Shown here piece after piece: positions 1 through 9,576 of a stretch of DNA of 14,974 nt; within the stretch, counting starts at the first letter, position 1, and the number at the start of each line of letters is the position of its first letter. The notes beneath the pieces are model-generated. The model did not search any database and had not been told where the DNA came from. It was given only the letters and a program-made list of their open reading frames with translations. This stretch comes from a virus. The position numbers were made by a program, and so were the translations under genes. The stretch lies in the UHGV virus genome UHGV-1728491. One strand, written 5' to 3'.

Positions 1-1130
1 CCTGAAGATGTAGATGAGAAAAATTTTGCTCCACATTCAATCGTTCTATTTATTGCTTGGTCTTTAATAATTTGCGGAAGCGCATCCCATATATCAGTAT
101 CCAATGATGTTGGTTGATACCCATCTCGTGACTGCTTAACATCTGATACTGTTGCATCCCATGTAGTAGTGTCACGCTTAATAACGTACGGAACACTGAT
201 TGTCTGGAAGGTGAGATCGGCAATAACTGAATTATTGGCGTCAGTAAATTCAAACATCTTGTCTGATTTAATAACCGCATTCCCAACCCCATACATCTGA
301 AAGCTGCCTGTATAGGTTATCTTCTTGTTTACAAACCATGTTCCTTCAGGGAAAAAGAATGGTAGGCCTGAGTGAAGGGCTGATATAAGGGCATCTGAAC
401 AATCCTGCCCTGACACACCACCGTACCAAGTAATTGGTTTAGCGATATCAGCAATGTAACCGGCACCACCAGGTCTGCCAAGAGCAAGCAGAACATCCGC
501 AGCAGATCCTGATGTTGGAACGAGCATGATTGGGTTACCATTAGCGTCAAACCCAACGATTTTATTCTTTCTTTGTTCGATACCTGGAAGCTGTGGTATT
601 GCTTCAGCAGTACGTAACGTTCTGTTCAGGTTTGTGGTTGAAACAACATCAACATAGTTTTTTGTAGCCGCATCCTGCGGCTCGCGTGGATCCTTCAAGT
701 TTCTAATGTAGTTGTTCAGCGCGTCATACCAGTTTGCGATACTCGATGGCTTACGTAGCGCCAGCCTGAATAAACTACTTACCTGCTGTATGAGCATAGT
801 CAGCTTATCAAACGCATCCTCGTGCACCTCAGCAAAAAACTTACCCTGGTTTCTAAGATCTGTTTCCTGAGTAACCGGCAGTTCTCGCGATATGGAAATC
901 TGATAACCATTAGCCAGTGCCTTCGACAGAATTACATTGCCGCCGTTATACCCTCCCGCACCAGTGACTGTGTAATCAGTATCAAGAGCCAGCACAGTGA
1001 TATTCTCGTCAGGGTCAATCACCTGCACTACTAGATCAGATTTATTGAAAACCCTAAAGGTATAAGGGAATGATGTCGTAACGCCGTTACCGGTGTATTC
1101 GTTGTGGTCAACTTCGGTTGAGACCGTCAT
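1..1130 (-). CDS. Tailspike / tail fibre protein, first 376 codons only (gene runs off the window start): N-terminal virion-attachment domain followed by the start of a beta-helix receptor-binding/depolymerase-type domain
   Basis: Absent from the ORF track because it has no in-window stop. I checked every minus-strand codon by hand from the ATG (rc of 1128-1130) to position 3: no stop. An in-frame TAG lies upstream at 1182-1184. SD GGAGA (rc of 1137-1141) is 6 nt before the ATG. Translation starts MTVSTEVDHNEYTGNGVTTSFPYTF; residues ~230-270 (WYGGVSGQDCSDALISALHSGLPFFFPEGTW) look like the start of a pectate-lyase-type beta-helix; VKQSRDGYQPT (nt 108-140) matches, from memory, a segment of the P22 gp9 tailspike (LKQSKTDGYQPT). 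The track ORFs 50-292 and 329-556 are other frames of this gene. Confidence 0.8.
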   Translation of the reverse strand, partial: MTVSTEVDHNEYTGNGVTTSFPYTFRVFNKSDLVVQVIDPDENITVLALDTDYTVTGAGGYNGGNVILSKALANGYQISISRELPVTQETDLRNQGKFFAEVHEDAFDKLTMLIQQVSSLFRLALRKPSSIANWYDALNNYIRNLKDPREPQDAATKNYVDVVSTTNLNRTLRTAEAIPQLPGIEQRKNKIVGFDANGNPIMLVPTSGSAADVLLALGRPGGAGYIADIAKPITWYGGVSGQDCSDALISALHSGLPFFFPEGTWFVNKKITYTGSFQMYGVGNAVIKSDKMFEFTDANNSVIADLTFQTISVPYVIKRDTTTWDATVSDVKQSRDGYQPTSLDTDIWDALPQIIKDQAINRTIECGAKFFSSTSS

Positions 1131-1324
1131 GTTAAATCTCCAGATAGTCGCAGCACCCGTTGCGCCGCATATCCGGTCATTCTATTACCTAAAAACCATA
1201 TATGGATAGAAAGCCCATAAATACGAACAGATATTACCTTTCAGGTGATTTGCAAAACGTGCTGGATAGCAAACAAATTATTTGCTACTGTATAAATATA
1301 CAGTTATTACATGGAGAAGATAAG
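1131..1324. promoter_or_regulatory. AT-rich divergent intergenic region, presumably holding promoters for the tailspike gene (minus) and the small plus-strand gene
   Basis: 194 bp non-coding gap between two divergently oriented start codons. Contains TGTATAAAT (1289-1297, extended -10-like) about 28 nt upstream of the plus-strand ATG, inverted repeat AGCAAA-N7-TTTGCT (1268-1286), and palindrome TTTGCAAA (1248-1255). No convincing -35 found; calls are by eye. Confidence 0.3.
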
Positions 1325-1582
1325 ATGCAGCAGTATCACTATCCACTGGAAGACGGATTTACCGAAAGGATTCACACGCCGGGAGGCGTCAGGTCACTGG
1401 TGGAGGGATCGCACTTGATGAAATTACTCCGGGATCTCGATAAGGATGGATTTAATGTCGATGGCCCACTTGCCGAACTGACTGCATTGATTAACTACGT
1501 CACCAGCTCACAGATGTCTATGCAGGATCTGCAAACACATCTCGACTATTGTGCCGAACAATTACGAAAACAAACCCGGTAA
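1325..1582 (+). CDS. Hypothetical small soluble protein (85 aa), orphan gene divergent from the late operon
   Basis: ATG at 1325 is preceded by SD GGAGAAG (1313-1319). Stop TAA at 1580-1582 is followed immediately by the 1590-1605 hairpin. The track's longer 126-aa version (from 1202) extends into the AT-rich promoter-like region with no SD, so I prefer the internal start. Product MQQYHYPLEDGFTERIHTPGG...; no family recognised. Confidence 0.6.
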   Translation: MQQYHYPLEDGFTERIHTPGGVRSLVEGSHLMKLLRDLDKDGFNVDGPLAELTALINYVTSSQMSMQDLQTHLDYCAEQLRKQTR

Positions 1583-1605
1583 ATTTAAAGGCCGCGAAAG
1601 CGGCC
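1581..1605 (-). terminator. Rho-independent terminator ending the minus-strand late operon; also the 3' hairpin for the convergent plus-strand gene
   Basis: Perfect stem GGCCGC (1590-1595) / GCGGCC (1600-1605) with a GAAA loop (UUUC on the minus transcript). On the minus-strand RNA the hairpin is followed by UUUAAAUUU (complement of 1581-1589). On the plus strand the downstream sequence is not U-rich. Confidence 0.7.
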
Positions 1606-1625
1606 TGTGACATGTCACGCTCACG

Positions 1626-1766
1626 TTATGACAAGCCTATGTACCCTGCTACACCAGATAATATCAAAATAACTGCAACAGCAAATTCGCCATCGTCAAT
1701 GATACATTTACGGTTCATAACGCCAAGTGCAACAAGCGCAAACACAACAAGAATAAAAGCAATCAT
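1626..1766 (-). CDS. Small hydrophobic protein, 46 aa, two predicted transmembrane segments; function unknown
   Basis: Hand-translated (below the 60-aa track cutoff): MIAFILVVFALVALGVMNRKCIIDDGEFAVAVILILSGVAGYIGLS, stop TAA at 1626-1628. SD AAGGA is 6 nt before the ATG (rc of 1764-1766) and overlaps the stop of the upstream 824-aa gene. Two hydrophobic stretches flank a charged loop (NRKCIIDDGE). Confidence 0.55.
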   Translation of the reverse strand: MIAFILVVFALVALGVMNRKCIIDDGEFAVAVILILSGVAGYIGLS

Positions 1767-1775
1767 TTCTCATCC

Positions 1776-4250
1776 TTATTGCGGAGTGACATCCTGTGGT
1801 CGCCACCAGTATGTCTGGTTAAACTCTTTCTTCGAACGTTGCTCCATTTTACGCAAATAACCTGGTGAAAAATACTCCTGCATCTGGTTAAAGATCATGT
1901 GATCGAGAGACGCCTTTAAGTACCAGAGATTCGCACCTGGCATCAGACCTTTCCCCAGCTTAACCAGATCACCACCAGTCTGCTCATTCTTCCCTTCCAC
2001 AGCATTTAACGGTATGCCCTGAGCAATCTTCACTACGTCATCAACCAGACCAGCTACCGGGCCAAGCATCGACGCCAGCGCGCCGCTTCCGTACCTAGTG
2101 TGATCTGACAATAAAAAGTCACCGTAAAGGCCAAGACCACCACCTTTCAGTAGAGCACCAAGCCAAAATTTAGCAGTATCTTCTCCTGTCATCTCGCGAG
2201 GATTACGACCAGACGCAAGGTCGTTAAGTTGCTGCGACAAAGCGCCAAGAATGGTCGTACTGGCAATAAACGTCGCAATATATGCCGCACGCCCACCAGC
2301 AGACGGCATACCCATAGCGCGTGACCAGTGACGCATAACCACCGAGATAGGGAACGATTTAAACAGGAAAACACTTCTCGTTAATTCACCTTTCCATGTT
2401 CCACGCTGAATACCAGAACCGGTTATCAGTTGCTCACGTGCTCCCGGTGTAATAACAGCCATATCAACTTCTTCAGTTACGGCACCGAGCAGTTTACGCA
2501 TTGCCTCAAATTTCACGCGTTCAGGCTCACCAAGATGTTTAACTGCTGAATCAGGGATACGCATAATGCTTTCCGGTGTCAGCATCGTATTATTACCGTT
2601 CCCCCAGTCCTCCTGTTGCGCCAGCTTCCATACACTCCAGTCTGTGTCAGTAATCCCTTTGCTTTTCAGGATACGAAAATCAGAGTCATCGAGGCTACGA
2701 AGGTCTGGCGTCCGTGACACTACTTCTCCCAGGCTTCCCATCATGGTTACGCCATAGGCGCGCTTGTGCGCATCTGACCATGCTGTAAGCCCACTGGCAC
2801 GCATTACGGCCGTTGCCGCCCAACGAGACACTGACGGCCCCATATTATCCATCGCCCAGCGGTTAACGCTGCCAAGTAGAGATTCCATCGCCAGACCAGC
2901 GCGGCGCGCCCGCACAAGTTCTGTACGGTTCGTTGGGTCCATAGCTTCAAGCTGGTTGCGGAATAACTGGTTCATTGGAAGGTTGGTAACCTTCGCCGAC
3001 AGATACATGGTTCCAAGATCAGAGAACGATGACAGCAACGCGGATCCGAGTCTGCTGGCAACCAGCCAGTTGCGGATATTGTCAGACCATCGCGCGATGT
3101 GCGGATTCGCTACAGGCTGTGTCTTTCCGGAAATAAAGTTGTACAGATTCTCTGTGTTGTTCGCCAGCCGCTCGACTTTACCGGTTTTACTCGGGTTAGC
3201 TGTTGCCGTTTCTGCCTTCACCTGATCAAGAAGAGAGCGGAAAACATGATCGGGGTTTGGGCCATATGTTTCCACCAGTGCAATATCTTTACTGATACCT
3301 TCCAGGTGACCGACCATGATTTCCCATAGAGAGCGATCGCCATAAAGTTGCTGATATTGCAGATAGGAATCTGCATCTTTGAAATGTATCTGTCGTGATG
3401 CATTACCACGGTTAGCACGTGCGCCGGAAATTCGCATTCCGGTATCAGTAAGCTTATTCAGCCCACCAGTAGCGATCGTGTTATAAGCCTCTCCAAGAAA
3501 TGCAGACAACTCAGCATCGTTCATCAGTTGTCCATCGGCTCGGGTATAATATTTGCGATCCAACTTACCTATAACATCGCTAACCCACTTATCCTTTGAT
3601 ACCGCCCCAACCTTTTCCATAGAATGATGTTGAGGGATCCCCCAGTTTTCGAGATAGCCAATGTCCCCACCAGCATCATTAAACCGGCGGCGCAGTAGCT
3701 CTGTCACTTCTCTCCACGCCTTAGCACCTTTTCTTGCTTTAGCATTGCCAGTATTTTGCCCCCGCATTTCATATACCAGGTCACGTACGCCCGCTTCATC
3801 TTCAAACAGACCAAAAAAGCGAGGATCAACTGCTTCGAATGCCTCCTGCAATTGACTCAATGCATAATCACGGGTGGCTTTTGTTCTGGATTCAACAGAG
3901 AGGAAATTCGATTTACCGTCTGCATTAAAAGCAATAGTACGGTTAAGAGCACCGAGTTTCCCATCAGCCCCTTGATAGCTATTGATAAATTTATCCAATC
4001 TCTGACGTGCGGCTATAGTGAGGGCCACACGACGTTTATTTAATGCCGCTTCTCGCTGTAATTCTTCAGATGCCAATTGTGCTGCTCGATATAGCCGCTC
4101 TGATTCGGAAAGTTGTCGCCACGACATCGGGTCATCACGAGCAATGGAGCGCATATTTCGATAAATGCGGTCTTCAATGTTCTGTATTTCTCGCGCCGTT
4201 AACGTGCGCTGCGCCGCCTGCTGGACCGCTTGTATACATTCCTGTCTCAT
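1776..4250 (-). CDS. Large internal virion / ejection protein (824 aa); C-terminal region resembles the C-terminal part of T7 gp16-type internal virion protein D
   Basis: Long ORF with own ATG (rc of 4248-4250) 5 nt after the stop of the preceding gene; a GAGG 9 nt upstream overlaps the end of the upstream gene. Last gene of the tail/ejection cassette. Gly/Ala-rich hydrophobic C-terminal third (…GGRAAYIATFIASTTILGALSQ…GGGLGLYGDFLL…) resembles what I recall of the T7 gp16 C-terminus. Unverified. Confidence 0.7.
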   Translation of the reverse strand: MRQECIQAVQQAAQRTLTAREIQNIEDRIYRNMRSIARDDPMSWRQLSESERLYRAAQLASEELQREAALNKRRVALTIAARQRLDKFINSYQGADGKLGALNRTIAFNADGKSNFLSVESRTKATRDYALSQLQEAFEAVDPRFFGLFEDEAGVRDLVYEMRGQNTGNAKARKGAKAWREVTELLRRRFNDAGGDIGYLENWGIPQHHSMEKVGAVSKDKWVSDVIGKLDRKYYTRADGQLMNDAELSAFLGEAYNTIATGGLNKLTDTGMRISGARANRGNASRQIHFKDADSYLQYQQLYGDRSLWEIMVGHLEGISKDIALVETYGPNPDHVFRSLLDQVKAETATANPSKTGKVERLANNTENLYNFISGKTQPVANPHIARWSDNIRNWLVASRLGSALLSSFSDLGTMYLSAKVTNLPMNQLFRNQLEAMDPTNRTELVRARRAGLAMESLLGSVNRWAMDNMGPSVSRWAATAVMRASGLTAWSDAHKRAYGVTMMGSLGEVVSRTPDLRSLDDSDFRILKSKGITDTDWSVWKLAQQEDWGNGNNTMLTPESIMRIPDSAVKHLGEPERVKFEAMRKLLGAVTEEVDMAVITPGAREQLITGSGIQRGTWKGELTRSVFLFKSFPISVVMRHWSRAMGMPSAGGRAAYIATFIASTTILGALSQQLNDLASGRNPREMTGEDTAKFWLGALLKGGGLGLYGDFLLSDHTRYGSGALASMLGPVAGLVDDVVKIAQGIPLNAVEGKNEQTGGDLVKLGKGLMPGANLWYLKASLDHMIFNQMQEYFSPGYLRKMEQRSKKEFNQTYWWRPQDVTPQ

Positions 4251-4255
4251 TTAAT

Positions 4256-6058
4256 TTAACCTCTCAAGAAACACGCCACAGCGACATCAAACAGGCTGGA
4301 ATCCTGTATTGCCTGCTCACTTTCCCTGTTCGCTTCATCCAGTACTTCACGCGCACTGCGCGATTGTGGATTACCATCATCATCCAGCACGGTGATTATC
4401 ATGTCAGGTGATTCAAGCAGCGAGTCTTCAGCTATGCGCAGATCAATATCTCCTGCCTGATCTGACATCATTTTTTGTTCTGCCTGTTGCAATATTTTAT
4501 CAGGCTCAAAAGGAGCTACTTCGTCTGGCGTCCTGACCTCTGCTGTTTTATAGAATGAAACAGCCTGAGCATTAAGTTCACTTTCTGCCTGCTGTCTCCG
4601 AGCCAGTTCTGCTCGAGCTTCAAAAAACTGACCGCCAGGCTCGTGCGGTGCCAACGCGTTACGGGAAAATTCCAGGCGTTCTTGTGCCTGCCGGATTCGT
4701 TGATCAATATCGCGAAGTCTGGCCTGTTTATCTGATCGAGCACGAGACAAAGCTTTACCGCTACCGGTTGGCTCTTCTGCAAGAATTTGTGCACGCTGTT
4801 CAGTGAGATTTTCAATAATTCGTTGGCTATTAGCGATTTCAGACTGGTAAACCTGTCTATCTCCACGCGGCAAAAGCTGCGCGGCCTGTTCTTCAAGCAA
4901 CCGATTTTCTATAGCGCGCGCCGTTACTCCATCATCTACAGATGACAGAGCCTCATTAACTTCCTGAGACAGCAGACTCTTGCGCCCAGGAATTTCACTG
5001 AAAGATGCAGACTCAACAATGCTCGCAACGTCTACAGGTCTCCCCTGGCTAACATCAGACATGGCTTTTCGCAGAGCCTGAATGTGCGAATTACGCGAAA
5101 GCACGTTGATCGGAACGCCGGGAGCAATATCAATTTCAGCATGATGAGCGGCATTCGCCGCCAGTGCAGCATCGATATCAACTGGTGAAAAATTTGGTGC
5201 GCTTGTAGGCTCGCCGCGAGAGTTAATAAATCTGCCGACACCACCAAACGCCACCCCAAGAACAGCATCAATAGCAATTGCCTGTCGATCCAACACATCA
5301 TACTGGTTAGCCATTTCGCTATAGCCACCATCACGAAGCGTTTTTGCAGTAAGCCCACGCTGTGCCATACCGAACGCAATATTTGTACCTGCGGCATAGG
5401 CAATATCTGGCGTTGCACGTACTGCTGTTGCTGCGGCGCGTCGCACTGAACTTTCCCCCGTCCGCGCAAGCTGAGCCGCCACACCTTCCGCCAGCGCACC
5501 GCCAGCACGTAACCCGAGGCTCATTGGGATCAGTGTTCCGGCACCAGCAGTAATACCATGCACTAATCCCGCTTCCTGCGCCGTCCTGAAATCAACACCC
5601 TGTGCTGTCAGCCGTTCAAACTCAGAAAAACCCTGTAGAGAAGTTACTGCCGCAGCACCTCCGACCGGACCACCGAGCGTTGTACCGACAACAGCCTGCC
5701 CGCCCATATCGAACAACCCATAAAGGACCTGCCCGGCGGTTCCGGTTGTCGCGGCATCAGGCGTCAGCCGCTTAACCTGCTGCTCTGCTAGTTTTCTCTG
5801 CTCAGCAATGTATGAAACTGAAGTGTCATTGAGCGAGGTGTTTTCGTTAACAAACTGAGCAATCGGGGATACGATTTTATCCATCCCTGCCCATAGCAAC
5901 TGATCTGGCTTTGCCACCAGCCCGGAGTACAAACCAGACAATGCCGCTCCTACAGCATTGTCGAAAAAACCAACATCGCTGTTAAAGCCAGCTGGATTTG
6001 ATGCTGCTTCGTCAAGCTGCTGATTCTGGTTTACTGGATTAAGGCCAAAGTAACTCAT
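4256..6058 (-). CDS. Internal virion / ejection protein (600 aa): Gly/Ala-rich hydrophobic N-terminal half, coiled-coil and acidic C-terminal half
   Basis: Long ORF in the ejection-protein position. ATG (rc of 6056-6058) has GGAG 9 nt upstream and overlaps the 3' end of the preceding gene by 20 nt. Composition is typical of membrane-inserting ejection proteins. No family-level match recognised. Confidence 0.65.
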   Translation of the reverse strand: MSYFGLNPVNQNQQLDEAASNPAGFNSDVGFFDNAVGAALSGLYSGLVAKPDQLLWAGMDKIVSPIAQFVNENTSLNDTSVSYIAEQRKLAEQQVKRLTPDAATTGTAGQVLYGLFDMGGQAVVGTTLGGPVGGAAAVTSLQGFSEFERLTAQGVDFRTAQEAGLVHGITAGAGTLIPMSLGLRAGGALAEGVAAQLARTGESSVRRAAATAVRATPDIAYAAGTNIAFGMAQRGLTAKTLRDGGYSEMANQYDVLDRQAIAIDAVLGVAFGGVGRFINSRGEPTSAPNFSPVDIDAALAANAAHHAEIDIAPGVPINVLSRNSHIQALRKAMSDVSQGRPVDVASIVESASFSEIPGRKSLLSQEVNEALSSVDDGVTARAIENRLLEEQAAQLLPRGDRQVYQSEIANSQRIIENLTEQRAQILAEEPTGSGKALSRARSDKQARLRDIDQRIRQAQERLEFSRNALAPHEPGGQFFEARAELARRQQAESELNAQAVSFYKTAEVRTPDEVAPFEPDKILQQAEQKMMSDQAGDIDLRIAEDSLLESPDMIITVLDDDGNPQSRSAREVLDEANRESEQAIQDSSLFDVAVACFLRG

Positions 6059-8567
6059 TCGGAATATCTCCGGAGAATCTCTGACGCTTCTGTGTCAGAT
6101 TAAGAACAACGGGAGAACCATCATCTTTCAGCAGATAACCAGTACCAAGTTTCACCAGGTACTGACTATCGCCGTAACTTTGCAAACCATACTGACCAGG
6201 CGGTGTTTTTATCCCGGAGCCGACAACTTGTTCATTCCAAGCCTGATTAACCTGCTTATCGAATTGCTCCGCAGACATTCCCCACGGCAAAAGGACATTC
6301 CCCATTCCGTTATAGTCATGCACGCCACCTGTAGCTACGTTAACAGCCTGTTTCCAGACATCATTGTCAATTTCGCCTGATACCACGCCTTTTTTCGCCA
6401 TCACACCAGCGTAATAATCCTTTGCGATCTCGTATGCCATTGATGCCCCCTGAGCGTCACCAGCAAATGCATCCTTCACCATGTCAGAAAACTCAAGGCG
6501 AAGATCAGCATCTTTAGGCATCGGAATACCTTTCGCATCATCAGTACCTTTACGAGCCGCCGCGCCAGCAAGAATTGTCTGCGCAGCGGTTTCAGGAGAC
6601 ACGGAAACATCCGGATTAAACCAGTTTTTTTCTGCCAAAATACCACCTGGCTTATCCATCAGTATCCCGGCAACGGCAGCAGATGGAGCGTTGGCACTGA
6701 TCTGCTGTAGTGCTGACATATACACCTGCCCACCACCAGTGCTCTGCCTGATGGTATCGAGATATGCTGCCTGTTGGGAAACTGGAGCATCACGAAAGAA
6801 AACACCGATCTGATTGGCCTCATCTTTGGAAAAGAACGTCAGTGGAGTGCCATATGACTTAGCAAGGTCACTGACCTGAGCGGCACGCAAGGCAACGCTC
6901 TGTCCAAAGTTATCCTTATTGCTCATGTCGATAGGCTTTGCCTGTCCGGCGGCAAGAGAGAACTGCACAGGATCCGATTGCCGCTGCTTTATCACCTGAT
7001 TTGCAGCCGAAACAACGTTGTCATAAAGAGCTGCGCGTGCCGCATACCCCTCCCCTGTCTCACCAGTATCCGGGCGTAATTGCTCAACATATGCTGTAAT
7101 GCTGCTTGTCGGCATGTTGCGGAAAGAGCCTATATACTGTCCGGCGATTTGCGTATTTCTGAACTCGGTATATCGCAGGTTTCCTTCTCTGACTCCATAA
7201 GCTGCAATAAAATCAGCCTCACCAGGTGGGTTAGGAAATTCAACGCCACGCATATACGCAGATGTCGCATCGCGAACTTGGCTGTCAATCATCGTTTTAT
7301 ATTCAGCCTGCTGCTGCCGACGCAGTTGATCCGCCTGTCGCATAAAACTTGCCTGCGCCTCAGGAGATGCCGCATCGAATGCTGCATTACCGGTATAGCG
7401 TTTGGTGTTGGTTGGAATTGTTGATAAACCAAGTGCTGCACTGACACCAGCAGTTAACTGCTGATCACTGTATGGCTGGCTACCGTTCTCATGATGGATA
7501 ATGGCTGCACAAAGCGCCTTCAGGGTATCAGGATTAGATGCATCGAGAGGCTCATCAGCAGAAACGCCAAGTTGTTCGCACACTGCTTTGATATACGACA
7601 TAGTGTCATTTTTATCAGTAGGCGGTGCCCAGCGATTAATTATCTCGCTGACGGTATCGATACCCTGCCGCTGATACGACATCAGGTTACGCCCTAATGC
7701 ACGAATCCCGTGCTCAGGTGTTTCGAATTTAGCAAATCGACCATCATCACCGGTCTGGCCTACCCACGGATTAGTTTTGCTGTATTCGAGATTTCCTGGG
7801 TTATTGTTGCGTATGCCACGGGCACGCTCGGAAGAGTCATTATCTGCTACAGCACGGCGAGCTCCAGCAGCAGTATCACTTAACTCGCCATTACTTTGGA
7901 TGAATGCGGTCGCATTGTTTGCCGACCACTGGGACAATGCGGCATCAGCAACCTTCTCTTTAAACTCGATTTTCTTGGCCTGTATTTGCTCGTCGCTCCA
8001 GCCATGCGCAACGCCGTAATCCTCAATTTGCTGGAAAGTTTGCTTATTAGCCAATACGTATGCGGCGTTGTCGCCATACAATGCTGCGGCATTTTTACCA
8101 TTGTTCAGCAGCGTCGCCTGAAACTGGCCTTCTTCGTAGGAATTTATTTGCCCTATCTCGTGCCGCCCGGCCTGCGTAGTGAACTGAATGCGCTGCTGCT
8201 GCGCCTGCTGCATGAAAGCATTACGAGCCTGTTCATCCGGCAGCGACATAGCCAGTTGCTCGACCTGGGCATCAAACTGCTGCGTATACTCCTGACCTTT
8301 TCCAATAGCATTTTTCCCTTTCAGGTTAAGCAATCCTGTTTCAGGATTATTCAGCAGATCACTGCTTATCTGACTGAGGTTAAGAGATGCCTCCTGAGCC
8401 AGAGCGATATTGGCACGCTGTTTTGCCTGCCCCAAAACATCAATTGCCTCTGTCCCTGCCCGAACAAAAGCATCACTAATACCTAGCTGAGAAAACGTCT
8501 GCAAGCCTGCTGACTGAACTCCACGACTCTCAACCTGACGTCCGGATACTGTTGGTACGACTGGCAT
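6039..8567 (-). CDS. Large internal virion / ejection protein (842 aa from the preferred start), gp15/gp16-class; contains a conserved hydrophilic NNNPGN block of possible enzymatic function
   Basis: The track gives 867 aa from 8642, but the ATG at rc 8565-8567 has a strong SD GGAGGA (rc of 8573-8578) and forms a TAATG stop/start overlap with the gp14-like gene, so I place the start at 8567. Follows the gp14-like gene as in T7-type cassettes. Conserved-looking block RGIRNNNPGNLEYSKTNPWVG…IINRWAPPTDKNDT at nt ~7443-7820. Confidence 0.65.
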   Translation of the reverse strand: MPVVPTVSGRQVESRGVQSAGLQTFSQLGISDAFVRAGTEAIDVLGQAKQRANIALAQEASLNLSQISSDLLNNPETGLLNLKGKNAIGKGQEYTQQFDAQVEQLAMSLPDEQARNAFMQQAQQQRIQFTTQAGRHEIGQINSYEEGQFQATLLNNGKNAAALYGDNAAYVLANKQTFQQIEDYGVAHGWSDEQIQAKKIEFKEKVADAALSQWSANNATAFIQSNGELSDTAAGARRAVADNDSSERARGIRNNNPGNLEYSKTNPWVGQTGDDGRFAKFETPEHGIRALGRNLMSYQRQGIDTVSEIINRWAPPTDKNDTMSYIKAVCEQLGVSADEPLDASNPDTLKALCAAIIHHENGSQPYSDQQLTAGVSAALGLSTIPTNTKRYTGNAAFDAASPEAQASFMRQADQLRRQQQAEYKTMIDSQVRDATSAYMRGVEFPNPPGEADFIAAYGVREGNLRYTEFRNTQIAGQYIGSFRNMPTSSITAYVEQLRPDTGETGEGYAARAALYDNVVSAANQVIKQRQSDPVQFSLAAGQAKPIDMSNKDNFGQSVALRAAQVSDLAKSYGTPLTFFSKDEANQIGVFFRDAPVSQQAAYLDTIRQSTGGGQVYMSALQQISANAPSAAVAGILMDKPGGILAEKNWFNPDVSVSPETAAQTILAGAAARKGTDDAKGIPMPKDADLRLEFSDMVKDAFAGDAQGASMAYEIAKDYYAGVMAKKGVVSGEIDNDVWKQAVNVATGGVHDYNGMGNVLLPWGMSAEQFDKQVNQAWNEQVVGSGIKTPPGQYGLQSYGDSQYLVKLGTGYLLKDDGSPVVLNLTQKRQRFSGDIPNELLWP

Positions 8568-9112
8568 TATAATCCTCCGGGTAATCTGGTTCCTGCTGCC
8601 GCCCCGATTGGCGCAGGGGTGCTTTGAGTAAACGGACTCCACGTCCCACCAAACATCTGGTACGCACCGTATGCCTTCAGAGGCGCAGTGAGCAATGTTG
8701 TTGCTGCTCCCACATTCCCCTGTTTACGGGCTGAACTGGCTTCTGCTTTATAGTTGGCAGCCTGAACCTGATAACCGTAAGCCTCGCGTTGCGCGTTATT
8801 CACCGTCGTTAGCGAATCAAGAGCGCCAAACTGAGCAGTGTCACCAAATATATCCAGCGCGTTACCTGTAGATAAATCAGCGCCGGTCGCCCCCATTGTC
8901 GCCGCCTGTGTACCAAGCCGCTGTCGGGTCTCTCTGCGCCGTTGCTCAGCTTCAGCGTTACCTCTGTTTATTGCATCATTTGCCTGAGCTGTGGCTATAT
9001 CTGCGTTCGCTTCTGCAACCTTCGAGGCATACTTTCCCTGTTGGTACTGGGTGTATGCCTGAATGCCACTCATGGCGAGCATTGCGCCACCAGCAATAAC
9101 CGGATCGCACAT
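8567..9112 (-). CDS. Internal virion protein B-like (T7 gp14-like), 181 aa
   Basis: ATG overlaps the upstream stop (TAATG at 9110-9114). N-terminus MCDPVIAGGAMLAMSGIQAY has a hydrophobic segment; Ala/Gln-rich middle; C-terminus …APIGAAAGTRLPGGL. Size, position after the gp13-like gene and N/C-terminal pattern match what I recall of T7 gp14 (196 aa). Memory-based. Confidence 0.6.
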   Translation of the reverse strand: MCDPVIAGGAMLAMSGIQAYTQYQQGKYASKVAEANADIATAQANDAINRGNAEAEQRRRETRQRLGTQAATMGATGADLSTGNALDIFGDTAQFGALDSLTTVNNAQREAYGYQVQAANYKAEASSARKQGNVGAATTLLTAPLKAYGAYQMFGGTWSPFTQSTPAPIGAAAGTRLPGGL

Positions 9113-9576
9113 TATTTTCTCTCCATGTGAAATCTGTGGAAATTAAGACCAAGAGCACCATAAGGCGCGGCTTCTTCAAGCCTGAATCCAAGCCAGTGCA
9201 GCCATGCTTTGGCAACATGGTTTCGCTCGTCGACGTAGTTTTCCAGGCGCGGATAAACTGCCAGCATCTGCTGCAATACAGGGCGGCAGTGGCGCAGAAA
9301 TGTCTTCTGATATTTTTCAATACGGCTGGTTCCGACCAGCCAGGGCGTACCATTGCCACCGATCATTGACGCCGGAGATACACCAAACATGGTTACCAGT
9401 TCTCCGTTCGCGAACCCTGACCAAGCCATAGTCGCAGTGCGAAGACCAACACGCAGCGCATCTTCGGTAGTCATCAGCGATACCGCATACAGTTCGTCAA
9501 TATCAGCCTGACGAACATCCGGCAAAATCATCTGAAGATGCTCTTCGGTAGCGGGAATAATTTGAACATCAATCAT
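9112..9576 (-). CDS. Internal virion protein A-like (T7 gp13-like position), 154 aa
   Basis: ATG overlaps the stop of the gp12-like gene (ATGA at 9574-9578). Size and position between gp12-like and gp14-like genes match the gp13 slot. Call is positional only. Confidence 0.45.
   Translation of the reverse strand: MIDVQIIPATEEHLQMILPDVRQADIDELYAVSLMTTEDALRVGLRTATMAWSGFANGELVTMFGVSPASMIGGNGTPWLVGTSRIEKYQKTFLRHCRPVLQQMLAVYPRLENYVDERNHVAKAWLHWLGFRLEEAAPYGALGLNFHRFHMERK

What the first reader, a model, noticed from the sequence alone, without database searches (positions are those of the whole stretch)
1776..6058. Ejection-protein region as two adjacent genes (600 + 824 aa) where T7 has one large gp16
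The two ORFs are separated by 5 nt, and the second has its own ATG and SD-like GAGG. Their combined length is close to a T7 gp16-sized protein. The N-terminal half of the 600-aa protein is the Gly/Ala-rich hydrophobic part and the 824-aa protein carries the gp16-like C-terminus. This is either a true gene fission or domain reshuffle, or my gp15/gp16 mapping is wrong.
Basis: inference. Interest (0 to 1): 0.4.

Follow-up and report, generated by a model that had tools for sequence, protein, structure and literature searches.

The report
Two-piece phage DNA-injection protein pair
The two adjacent genes are the known, always-separate internal "ejection" proteins of a phiV10/epsilon15-type E. coli phage; together they cover the job of T7's single gp16, and a lone conserved cysteine at each facing end suggests they are tied together by a disulfide bond.

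Summary
On the minus strand, a 600-aa ORF (Y, 6058..4256) and an 824-aa ORF (Z, 4250..1776) are separated by TAA + ATTAA + ATG, with a GAGAGG Shine-Dalgarno 9 nt upstream.

This is not a local fission. Ten phage genomes and 232 of 233 IMG/VR loci with a Z gene have a separate ORF immediately upstream of Z. The only hybrid is a deletion.

- **Y:** a weaker but reproducible, colinear match to the N-terminal third of SP6-type gp16. No match to T7-group gp16 or to gp15.
- **Y architecture:** conserved N module, variable middle (ADP-ribosyltransferase, ParB or transglycosylase in relatives), conserved C-terminal helix.
- **Cysteines:** Y has one cysteine, 5 residues from its end. Z has one, at residue 5. 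The pattern holds family-wide, and fused gp16s have none.

Cyanophage A4's solved pre-ejectosome shows exactly such a disulfide. The gene arrangement is already known; the disulfide-joined split is a testable inference.

The parts
4256..6058 (-). Gene Y, 600 aa: internal virion (ejection) protein. Homolog of PhiV10p19 and epsilon15 gp16 (phrog_1145).
1776..4250 (-). Gene Z, 824 aa: internal virion (ejection) protein. Homolog of PhiV10p20 and epsilon15 gp17 (phrog_684), and of the C-terminal two-thirds of T7 gp16 (IVP-D).
   Evidence: Hardies et al. 2016
4251..4265 (-). Y/Z junction: Shine-Dalgarno GAGAGG (4265-4260, inside the end of Y), then the TAA stop of Y (4258-4256), then the 5-nt spacer ATTAA (4255-4251) before the ATG of Z. 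The arrangement fits translational coupling.
   Evidence: Junctions in relatives are 0-5 nt spacers or ATGA/TAATG overlaps, in all three relative frames.
5009..6058 (-). Y residues 1-350: conserved N-terminal module of the Y family. It is always at the N-terminus, in 1328 cluster representatives, and contains the Gly/Ala-rich stretch (aa 100-290, nt 5189-5761).
   Evidence: AF2 model is all-helical, pLDDT about 90 over residues 31-170 and 311-350 but 56-77 over 181-310.
4439..5008 (-). Y residues about 351-540: variable, charged helical spacer. This is the 'cargo slot'. Relatives carry ART-PolyVal, ddrB-ParB or lytic transglycosylase domains here.
   Evidence: P0308; KL4
4259..4438 (-). Y residues 541-600: conserved C-terminal module, a beta-hairpin plus a 31-residue terminal helix. 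It ends in the motif A-V-A-C596-F-L-R-G. Cys596 (codon 4273-4271) is the only cysteine in Y.
4236..4250 (-). Z residues 1-5, M-R-Q-E-C5: conserved N-terminus. Cys5 (codon 4238-4236) is the only cysteine in Z and is invariant in all Z alignments.
2109..3332 (-). Z residues 307-714: the region that aligns significantly with T7 gp16 residues 795-1199. It includes the shared motif L-F-K-S-F-P-I (aa 629-635, nt 2346-2366), which matches Q-F-K-S-F-T-I in T7.
6039..8567 (-). Context. Gene X, 842 aa from the ATG at 8567 (epsilon15 gp15 / PhiV10p18): large internal protein with an inserted muralytic domain at about aa 270-420. It sits in the gp15 position.
8567..9576 (-). Context. Gene B (181 aa, 8567-9112; Pfam T7_gp14) and gene A (154 aa, 9112-9576; phrog_308, the same family as T7 gp13). 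They anchor the T7-type operon mapping.

Best explanation
Y and Z are two genuine, separately translated internal-virion (ejection) proteins of a phiV10/epsilon15-type temperate podophage. They are the last two genes of a T7-like operon: tube A, tube B, gp13-like A, gp14-like B, X, Y, Z, tailspike.

Inferred, about 45-50% likely: Y corresponds to the N-terminal third of gp16. The muralytic domain that T7 carries on gp16 sits on X instead, as it does in SP6 and phiKMV gp15 equivalents. On this reading Y+Z together do what single-chain gp16 does.

Inferred, about 60% likely: in the virion core the C-terminal helix of Y docks onto the N-terminal part of Z. A disulfide between the only cysteine of Y (C596) and the only cysteine of Z (C5) fixes it, giving a 1:1 end-to-end heterodimer. 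A disulfide in the same position is seen in the solved pre-ejectosome of cyanophage A4 (gp27 Cys1715 to gp26 Cys5).

By analogy with T7 and A4: after the tailspike engages O-antigen, B, X, Y and Z leave the capsid through the portal and tail. They then rebuild as the trans-envelope DNA conduit. X cuts peptidoglycan and Z provides the gp16-C inner-membrane and cytoplasmic part.

Y is the family's cargo slot: a conserved N module and C-terminal docking helix bracket a variable middle. Here the middle is a plain charged helical spacer. In relatives it holds an ADP-ribosyltransferase, a ParB-like domain or a transglycosylase, which implies delivery into the host. The tight junction (SD inside the end of Y, 5-nt spacer) suggests translational coupling and matched amounts.
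For: **Identity.** 98% DNA identity to phiV10, with p19 and p20 annotated as separate CDSs. Full-length PHROG matches for both proteins.

**Operon mapping.** B hits Pfam T7_gp14. A and T7 gp13 share phrog_308.

**Conserved split.**
- Separate A-B-X-Y-Z genes (B-X-Y-Z in SC1, where no A gene is annotated) in epsilon15, YeP4, Shamal, RpY1, SC1, Skadi-3, KL4 and BUCT709, and in metagenomic locus L285.
- Of 236 IMG/VR loci, 233 have a Z gene. Of those, 197 have a recognised Y ORF upstream. 34 more have a 392-526 aa (3 KL4-like loci: 188-288 aa) ORF abutting Z that falls below the HMM threshold. One is cut short. One is a deletion hybrid.

**Y roughly equals gp16-N.**
- Y against SP6-family gp37: E=9e-5 to 1.5e-4 over about 300 columns, colinear.
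- Real score 45.0. Reversed decoy 14.0. Block-shuffled decoys 20.7 +/- 4.1. Locally shuffled decoys 18.3 +/- 3.1.
- Disjoint subsets, and Skadi-3 Y alone (E=5e-4), give the same register.
- The SP6 N-part aligns to the T7 N-part at E=1e-4.

**Cargo slot.** In the 150 best of 1328 Y-family representatives (most 420-800 aa, some up to 1740 aa) the N module sits at the N-terminus; all 20 longest end in the C-[FA]-L-R-type motif. Long ones carry ART-PolyVal, ddrB-ParB or an LT domain but no Z-like part. The 1740-aa member sits between X and a bona fide Z.

**Cysteines.**
- In 8 diverse phages, Y has exactly one Cys, 5-8 residues from its end, and Z has exactly one Cys, at residue 5 (10 in Skadi-3).
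- 128 Y representatives: mean 1.00 Cys, and 125 have it in the last 12 residues.
- 230 Z ORFs: mean 1.01 Cys, and 228 have it in the first 12 residues.
- Nine fused gp16 proteins have none.
- Ejection proteins are otherwise cysteine-depleted (PMC11445570).

**A4 precedent.** The disulfide gp27 Cys1715 to gp26 Cys5 is seen by cryo-EM, with the gp27 C-terminal helix inserted into gp26 (PMC12002296). In the A-4L genome each protein has only that one Cys. The gene order is the same and the junction is also stop + 5 nt + ATG. The AF2 model of Y ends in a 31-residue helix at pLDDT above 90.
Against: - The Y-to-gp16-N link is weak. hhalign probability is only 51-59%. It is seen only against the SP6 family, not against T7-group, phiKMV or P-SSP7 gp16 (E 0.1-0.4).
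- Most of that signal lies in the helical, coiled-coil-like half.
- Deeper Y alignments (95 and 134 sequences) give only a short hit in a different register (E 0.008-0.036).
- A4 gp26 and gp27 show no detectable sequence similarity to Z and Y (E>0.1 in hhalign; the hmmsearch scan's only sub-0.1 hit is off-target, the Y-N profile on gp26 at E=0.002). The disulfide precedent could therefore be convergent.
- No structure or biochemistry exists for this phage. The host cytoplasm is reducing, so any disulfide would have to form after lysis.
- X, Y and Z show no similarity to gp15 families, so the gp15 assignment of X is positional only.
Confidence: 0.7

Rival explanations
1. Y is not the N-terminal part of gp16. 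X and Y together are the diverged equivalent of T7 gp15 (IVP-C), or Y is a lineage-specific extra core or adaptor protein. Z alone is gp16 minus its lytic domain. This phage group then simply has four ejection proteins instead of three.
For: Hardies et al. 2016 name epsilon15 gp15 and gp16 as IVP-C candidates by position, helicity and the lysozyme domain. Y shows no similarity to T7-group gp16 N-parts. Structure searches give no gp16 hit. A4 also has four core proteins at 10:10:5:5, unlike T7's three. Z starts where the strongly conserved gp16 block begins (T7 about 490-507, SP6 about 494), so gp16-C may be a self-contained unit.
Against: Y and X show no similarity at all to any gp15 family (E 0.15-0.74). 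Y does give a reproducible, colinear, decoy-beating match to the N-terminal third of SP6 gp37. In SP6 and phiKMV a single gp15-position protein of 900-980 aa with a lytic domain already matches X in size and architecture.
Confidence: 0.3
2. The two ORFs are one gene, broken here by a recent mutation or sequencing error, or rejoined during translation by programmed frameshifting or stop-codon readthrough.
For: The spacer is only 5 nt and the combined length is gp16-like. 22 of 191 related junctions are in frame (gap 0 or 3 nt), so readthrough is formally possible there.
Against: The stop of Y and the ATG plus SD of Z are present in 324 E. coli genomes and all phage relatives. The end of Y (…C-F-L-R-x) and the start of Z (M-[KR]-x-E-C) are themselves among the most conserved motifs. 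Relative frames at the junction vary (0, +1 and +2) between lineages, so no single recoding mechanism fits. No full-length fusion appears among 233 loci or among 16 long Y-family proteins.
Confidence: 0.02
3. The terminal cysteines do not form a Y-Z disulfide. They serve another purpose, such as metal binding, acylation, or links to other partners like the Cys2 of the gp14-like B protein.
For: No experimental data exist for this phage. B proteins, including T7 gp14, also start M-C. The A4 proteins are not detectably homologous to Y and Z.
Against: Each protein has exactly one Cys, at the mutually facing termini, and this holds family-wide. The same positional pair is seen as a disulfide in A4. 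Single-chain gp16s lack Cys altogether.
Confidence: 0.25

Closest known systems
Escherichia phage phiV10 p19/p20 and Salmonella phage epsilon15 gp16/gp17 (genus Uetakevirus)
   Same: Same genes. 98% DNA identity to phiV10, with the same order, sizes and junction. Epsilon15 has the same five-gene A-B-X-Y-Z module.
   Different: Only 28-30% protein identity to the epsilon15 proteins themselves. X ends 16 nt later here than in phiV10, giving a 20-nt X/Y overlap instead of 4 nt.
T7 gp16 / IVP-D and its homologs in Autographiviridae (SP6 gp37, phiKMV gp37)
   Different: gp16 is one chain of 1245-1361 aa in the 18 sequences examined, with no cysteine in the nine checked. T7's N-terminal transglycosylase is absent from Y and Z and sits in X. 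The Y-to-gp16-N similarity is remote and unproven.
Cyanophage A4 pre-ejectosome pair gp27-gp26 (PDB 9k2v; PMC12002296)
   Same: Penultimate and last ejection-protein genes, separated by stop + 5 nt + ATG. The upstream protein has a single Cys at its extreme C-terminus and the downstream one a single Cys at residue 5. In A4 these form a disulfide that fixes the C-terminal helix of gp27 in gp26. There are four core proteins, with the lytic domains on the gp28 (X-position) protein.
   Different: No detectable sequence similarity. The A4 proteins are larger (1717 and 1114 aa). The disulfide and the 10:10:5:5 stoichiometry have not been shown for this phage.
Large polyvalent proteins of phages (ART-PolyVal and ddrB-ParB containing)
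   Same: Many Y-family members are such proteins. They have the same N module and the same C-terminal Cys motif, with effector domains in between, and occupy the same operon slot.
   Different: The window's Y carries no recognisable effector domain, only a charged helical spacer.

Membership tests
epsilon15 gp16 family (phrog_1145) | Full-length sequence match to the family profile | tested here: met
   Y residues 1-600 match profile positions 1-594 of 594, E=0. tblastn finds epsilon15 gp16 at 30% identity over residues 4-476.
epsilon15 gp17 family (phrog_684, virion structural protein) | Full-length sequence match to the family profile | tested here: met
   Z residues 1-824 match profile positions 1-831 of 840, E=0. 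Epsilon15 gp17 is 27.6% identical over 100% of Z.
T7 gp16 / IVP-D | Homology to the conserved C-terminal region of gp16 | tested here: met
   [not shown]
T7 gp16 / IVP-D | Single polypeptide of about 1250-1360 aa covering the N-module plus the C-region | tested here: not met
   Two ORFs with their own stop and start. They are separate in all relatives.
T7 gp16 / IVP-D | Homology of the N-terminal third (T7 about 256-410; SP6 about 58-455) | tested here: inconclusive
   Y against the SP6 family gives E about 1e-4, probability 51-59%, and beats decoys. Y against T7-group, phiKMV and P-SSP7 is not significant.
T7 gp16 / IVP-D | N-terminal lytic transglycosylase domain (T7 subgroup only) | tested here: not met
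   No such domain in Y or Z. A muralytic domain lies in X instead. SP6 gp37 also lacks it.
T7 gp16 / IVP-D | Position: last gene of the gp13-gp14-gp15-gp16 operon, before the tail fibre or tailspike gene | tested here: met
   Order A (phrog_308), B (Pfam T7_gp14), X, Y, Z. In phiV10 a small membrane-protein gene and an oppositely oriented three-gene block (p22-p24) lie between Z and the tail fibre; in epsilon15 gp18 and gp19 lie between Z and the tailspike.
T7 gp16 / IVP-D | Packaged in the capsid core and ejected into the host before the DNA | not testable with these tools
   Only indirect support: phrog_684 is labelled 'virion structural protein' and phiV10 p20 is annotated as structural.
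T7 gp15 / IVP-C | Sequence or profile similarity to gp15 families | tested here: not met
   X, Y and Z against T7-group, phiKMV, SP6 and P-SSP7 gp15 all give E>=0.047, with nothing significant. Hardies 2016 also failed to find it.
A4-type disulfide-linked ejection-protein pair (gp27-gp26) | Adjacent genes, with a sole Cys at the extreme C-terminus of the upstream protein and a sole Cys at about residue 5 of the downstream protein | tested here: met
   Y has only C596 of 600 residues and Z has only C5. The pattern holds family-wide. A-4L gp27 has only C1715 of 1717 and gp26 has only C5.
A4-type disulfide-linked ejection-protein pair (gp27-gp26) | Sequence homology to A4 gp27 and gp26 | tested here: not met
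   For the intended pairs (gp26 vs Z, gp27 vs Y) hhalign and hmmsearch give E>0.09. The Y-N profile hits gp26, not gp27, at whole-sequence E=0.0022 against the 5-protein set.
A4-type disulfide-linked ejection-protein pair (gp27-gp26) | A physical intermolecular disulfide in the virion | not testable with these tools
   Needs virion biochemistry or cryo-EM.
Large polyvalent proteins | Effector or enzymatic domains (ART-PolyVal, ddrB-ParB and others) in one long virion-delivered protein | tested here: not met
   Pfam finds nothing in the window's Y. Relatives P0326 and P0367 do carry these domains.

The most novel reading that the evidence does not exclude
Y and Z are the two halves of a gp16-type ejection protein that the virion re-joins after translation. 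The join is a disulfide between the only cysteine of Y (C596) and the only cysteine of Z (C5). The split turns the middle of Y into a swappable cargo slot for toxin-like or DNA-binding effectors. It also makes a redox-sensitive joint that would be cut in the reducing host cytoplasm, releasing Y and its cargo from the membrane-bound Z. This would be a general, previously ungeneralised design. It would be shared by over a thousand protein clusters of podophages, from enterobacteria to SAR11, Liberibacter and (convergently or by very deep homology) cyanophage A4.
Probability: 0.3. Interest if true: 0.7.

Novelty: already known. Interest (0 to 1): 0.4.

Why it matters
The gene pair is an ordinary, already annotated part of phiV10/epsilon15-type phages, so the 'gene fission' flag adds no new biology.

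The follow-up does sharpen an open question: how the three T7 ejection proteins map onto the four of epsilon15-like phages. It also yields a simple prediction that a wet lab can test in days: a C596-C5 disulfide tying Y to Z.

If confirmed, it would explain how these phages attach interchangeable effector cargo to the DNA-injection machinery. It would extend a bond seen once, in cyanophage A4, to a very large and medically relevant group. That group includes prophages found in about 6% of complete E. coli genomes, as well as Salmonella, Klebsiella and Pseudomonas phages.

Tried and rejected
- **Pairwise BLASTP.** X, Y and Z against T7 gp15 and gp16 gave nothing significant.
- **PDB sequence searches.** phmmer and hmmsearch with Y, Z and a Z profile gave no meaningful hits.
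- **The search for homologous proteins.** All three searches, including one with a diverse profile, listed only relatives with at least 86% identity. They were useless for diversity or for detecting fusions.
- **Global MAFFT alignment.** Aligning T7-type and SP6-type gp16 together misaligned their N-modules, so subfamily profiles were used instead.
- **First decoy script.** It timed out.
- **Structure prediction of Z.** The permitted shallow alignment gave an unusable model (pLDDT 37), so no fold search was run for Z.
- **Long Y-family proteins as natural Y-Z fusions.** Rejected. There is no Z-like or gp16-C-like region in any of 16.
- **Recent fission, sequencing error or recoding.** Rejected on conservation and on the variable junction frames.
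- **Papers not held.** Guichard 2013 and Kropinski 2007 (epsilon15 genetics and proteomics) could not be read. I recall that Guichard et al. found gp17 attachment to depend on gp15 and gp16. That is unverified memory and carries no weight here.

Full report
**What is there.** All long ORFs of the window lie on the minus strand. The finding's span holds two of them. Y runs 6058..4256 (600 aa) and Z runs 4250..1776 (824 aa). On the minus strand the junction reads ...TTG AGA GGT TAA ATTAA ATG... That is a TAA stop, a 5-nt spacer and an ATG, with GAGAGG 9 nt upstream of the ATG. Residues 100-290 of Y are 34% Gly+Ala.

**Where it comes from.** The 4.3-kb span is 98% identical to Escherichia phage phiV10 and its relatives. 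It occurs as a prophage in 324 of 5426 complete E. coli genomes. In the phiV10 record:
- Y is PhiV10p19, 'similar to epsilon15p16'.
- The preceding 842-aa gene, X, is PhiV10p18.

PHROG profiles match both proteins end to end: phrog_1145 (unknown function) for Y and phrog_684 (virion structural protein) for Z. Pfam has nothing for either.

The neighbourhood is a T7-type structural operon:
- capsid;
- tube A (202 aa) and tube B (820 aa);
- a 154-aa protein in the same PHROG as T7 gp13;
- a 181-aa protein that hits Pfam T7_gp14;
- then X, Y and Z.

The question is how X, Y and Z relate to gp15 and gp16.

**Is the split local?** No. The same separate genes occur in all of the following:

|---|---|
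| epsilon15 | 842 / 634 / 918 |
| Yersinia YeP4 | 708 / 430 / 841 |
| Pseudomonas Shamal | 678 / 640 / 847 |
| Ralstonia RpY1 | 879 / 491 / 1069 |
| Liberibacter SC1 | 707 / 478 / 864 |
| Pelagibacter Skadi-3 | 977 / 424 / 825 |
| Burkholderia KL4 | 706 / 749 / 864 |
| Stenotrophomonas BUCT709 | 904 / 568 / 974 |

I fetched 236 IMG/VR loci around Z relatives from four sub-lineages and scanned their ORFs with family HMMs.
- 233 loci have a Z gene.
- 197 of those have a recognised, separate Y ORF upstream.
- 34 more have an ORF abutting Z that is too diverged for the HMM threshold: 392-526 aa in the Skadi- and VP5-type loci, 188-288 aa in three KL4-like loci.
- One locus is cut short.

Junctions are 0-5 nt spacers or 1-4 nt overlaps, and they fall in all three relative frames. 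This argues against frameshifting or readthrough as a general way of making one protein. The extreme C-terminus of Y and the extreme N-terminus of Z are themselves conserved motifs.

**Z and gp16.** BLASTP and HMM-versus-sequence searches see nothing. Profile-profile comparison does.
- A 32-sequence Z profile gives E=7.5e-7 over 371 columns. L-F-K-S-F-P-I of Z lies on Q-F-K-S-F-T-I of T7.

By extrapolation, residue 1 of Z falls at about T7 residue 490. That is where the strongly conserved block shared by T7-type and SP6-type gp16 begins (T7 507-1293 to SP6 494-1250, E=1e-14). This reproduces Hardies et al. 2016, who identified epsilon15 gp17 as the IVP-D homolog by HMM-HMM matching. Z shows nothing against gp15 families.

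**Y and gp16.** Y gives no signal against gp15 families, T7-group gp16, phiKMV gp37 or P-SSP7 gp16 (E 0.1-0.7).

Against the SP6 family it gives a long colinear alignment. Y 168-587 aligns with SP6 gp37 129-455 over about 300 columns, with E=9e-5 to 1.5e-4 and probability 51-59%. Controls (real score 45.0):
- reversed target: 14.0;
- 15-column block shuffles: 20.7 +/- 4.1, maximum 31.5;
- shuffles confined to 20- or 40-column windows, which keep the large-scale composition layout: 18.3 +/- 3.1 and 17.2 +/- 2.6, maximum 27.7.

Disjoint subsets of Y sequences give the same register at E about 2e-3. Skadi-3 Y alone aligns its Gly/Ala-rich module (120-208) to SP6 128-210 at E=5e-4. That SP6 segment in turn aligns to T7 gp16 256-376 at E=1e-4. 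Concatenated Y+Z aligns colinearly to SP6 gp37 residues 4-1269.

Four points count against the link:
- Most of the score comes from the charged helical half.
- Deeper Y alignments reproduce only a short hit in a different register.
- Foldseek against BFVD returns only Y-family and polyvalent proteins. One exception is a 1287-aa 'putative internal virion protein' that I could not inspect.

I rate 'Y is the N-terminal third of gp16' at about 45-50%. The published alternative places epsilon15 gp15 and gp16 together in the gp15 role by position. It remains open.

**What Y is like.** An exhaustive HMMER search of 1.84 billion cluster representatives found 1328 relatives.
- The first roughly 350 residues always lie at the N-terminus.
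- Lengths are mostly 420-800 aa, but reach 1740 aa.
- The long members carry ART-PolyVal, ddrB-ParB or a transglycosylase domain. Some also match large uncharacterised PHROGs.
- None of the 16 longest has any Z-like or gp16-C-like region.
- The 20 longest members all end in the same C-terminal C-[FA]-L-R-type motif...A-[AV]-x-C-[FA]-L-R.
- The 1740-aa member (ParB + ART) sits exactly between an X (674 aa, without the lytic insert) and a bona fide Z (833 aa, E=1e-240) in a complete operon.

Y is thus built as a conserved N module, a variable cargo slot and a conserved C-terminal module. In the AF2 model the C-terminal module is a hairpin plus a 31-residue terminal helix.

**The cysteine pair.**
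- In all eight diverse phages, Y contains exactly one cysteine, 5-8 residues from its C-terminus. Z contains exactly one, at residue 5 (10 in Skadi-3).
- Among 128 Y-family representatives of at least 400 aa, the mean is 1.00 Cys per protein. 125 have it in the last 12 residues.
- Among 230 Z ORFs, the mean is 1.01. 228 have it in the first 12 residues.
- The nine single-chain gp16 proteins examined have no cysteine at all.

Ejection proteins are known to be cysteine-depleted, presumably because they cross the oxidising periplasm (PMC11445570). That makes two invariant, mutually facing terminal cysteines conspicuous.

The cryo-EM structure of the cyanophage A4 pre-ejectosome shows four core proteins, gp29:gp28:gp27:gp26, at 10:10:5:5. 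[quoted passage not shown]

In the A-4L genome:
- gp27 (1717 aa) has only Cys1715 and gp26 (1114 aa) has only Cys5.
- The genes are separated by stop + 5 nt + ATG.
- The order is the same as here: tube A, tube B, a small ORF, gp29, gp28 (transglycosylase + M23), gp27, gp26.

I found no sequence similarity between the A4 proteins and Y or Z. The parallel is therefore either very deep homology or convergence. The A4 paper's main text, searched by keyword, does not generalise the pair.

I infer, at about 60%, that Y C596 and Z C5 form the same kind of bond. That would effectively re-join the two chains end to end.

**Mechanism (inferred).** After O-antigen binding by the tailspike, B, X, Y and Z leave the capsid core through the portal and tail, and build the trans-envelope conduit as in T7.
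- X supplies the peptidoglycan-cutting domain.
- Z supplies the gp16-C function at the inner membrane and cytoplasm.
- Y, tethered to Z, supplies the Gly/Ala-rich N module and, in relatives, effector cargo.

A further idea is that the disulfide is reduced in the cytoplasm to release Y. That is speculation.

**Verdict.** The arrangement is already known: phiV10 and epsilon15 annotation, and Hardies 2016. What this analysis adds is the tentative Y-to-gp16-N link, the cargo-slot architecture of the Y family, and the family-wide single-cysteine pair with its A4 precedent.

Noticed in passing
[not shown]
   Followed up: partly
window 8567-9112 (-), gene B; also T7 gp14 (L002:5729-6319): The gp14-like proteins begin M-C: window MCDPV, epsilon15 MCSPA, YeP4 MCTGV, T7 MCWAA. 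In T7 gp14 this is the only cysteine. A conserved Cys2 in an otherwise cysteine-poor ejection protein is unexplained.
   Followed up: no
window 6039-8567 (-), gene X, about aa 270-420; L285:4622-6646; L010:5251-7500: The muralytic domain moves around. It is an insert in the middle of X here and in epsilon15. It is absent from the 674-aa X of L285, where X-profile positions 217-357 are missing. It sits in Y, not X, in Burkholderia phage KL4 and in representative P0308.
   Followed up: partly
window 6039-6058: X and Y overlap by 20 nt here (X ends ...NELLWP*), whereas phiV10 annotates a 4-nt overlap. The C-terminus of X differs slightly from phiV10 despite 98% overall identity.
   Followed up: no
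window 8567-8642: The mechanical 867-aa ORF starts at a GTG at 8642, inside gene B. The likely true start of X is the ATG at 8567, giving MPVVPTV..., which matches the conserved M-P-x-[IV]-P-T start of X proteins and the phiV10 annotation. It overlaps the stop of B by 1 nt.
   Followed up: partly
L285:6646-11868 (Logan SRR15327668 contig): A 1740-aa Y-family protein carries ddrB-ParB and ART-PolyVal domains between the conserved N module and the C-terminal Cys motif. It sits in the Y slot of a complete A-B-X-Y-Z operon. It is a candidate injected effector.
   Followed up: partly
BFVD entry A0A8S5MDJ8 (Caudovirales sp. ctTqA28), not in the window: The Y structure model hits a 1287-aa 'putative internal virion protein' at Foldseek E=4.5e-5 over 514 columns. 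Its gp16-like size makes it a candidate natural fusion or intermediate. The sequence could not be retrieved.
   Followed up: no
window 1-1775: By comparison with phiV10, the region downstream of Z should hold a small two-TM membrane protein gene, a terminator and an oppositely oriented Bro-N/antirepressor-like gene. The window's + strand ORF at 1202-1582 was not examined.
   Followed up: no
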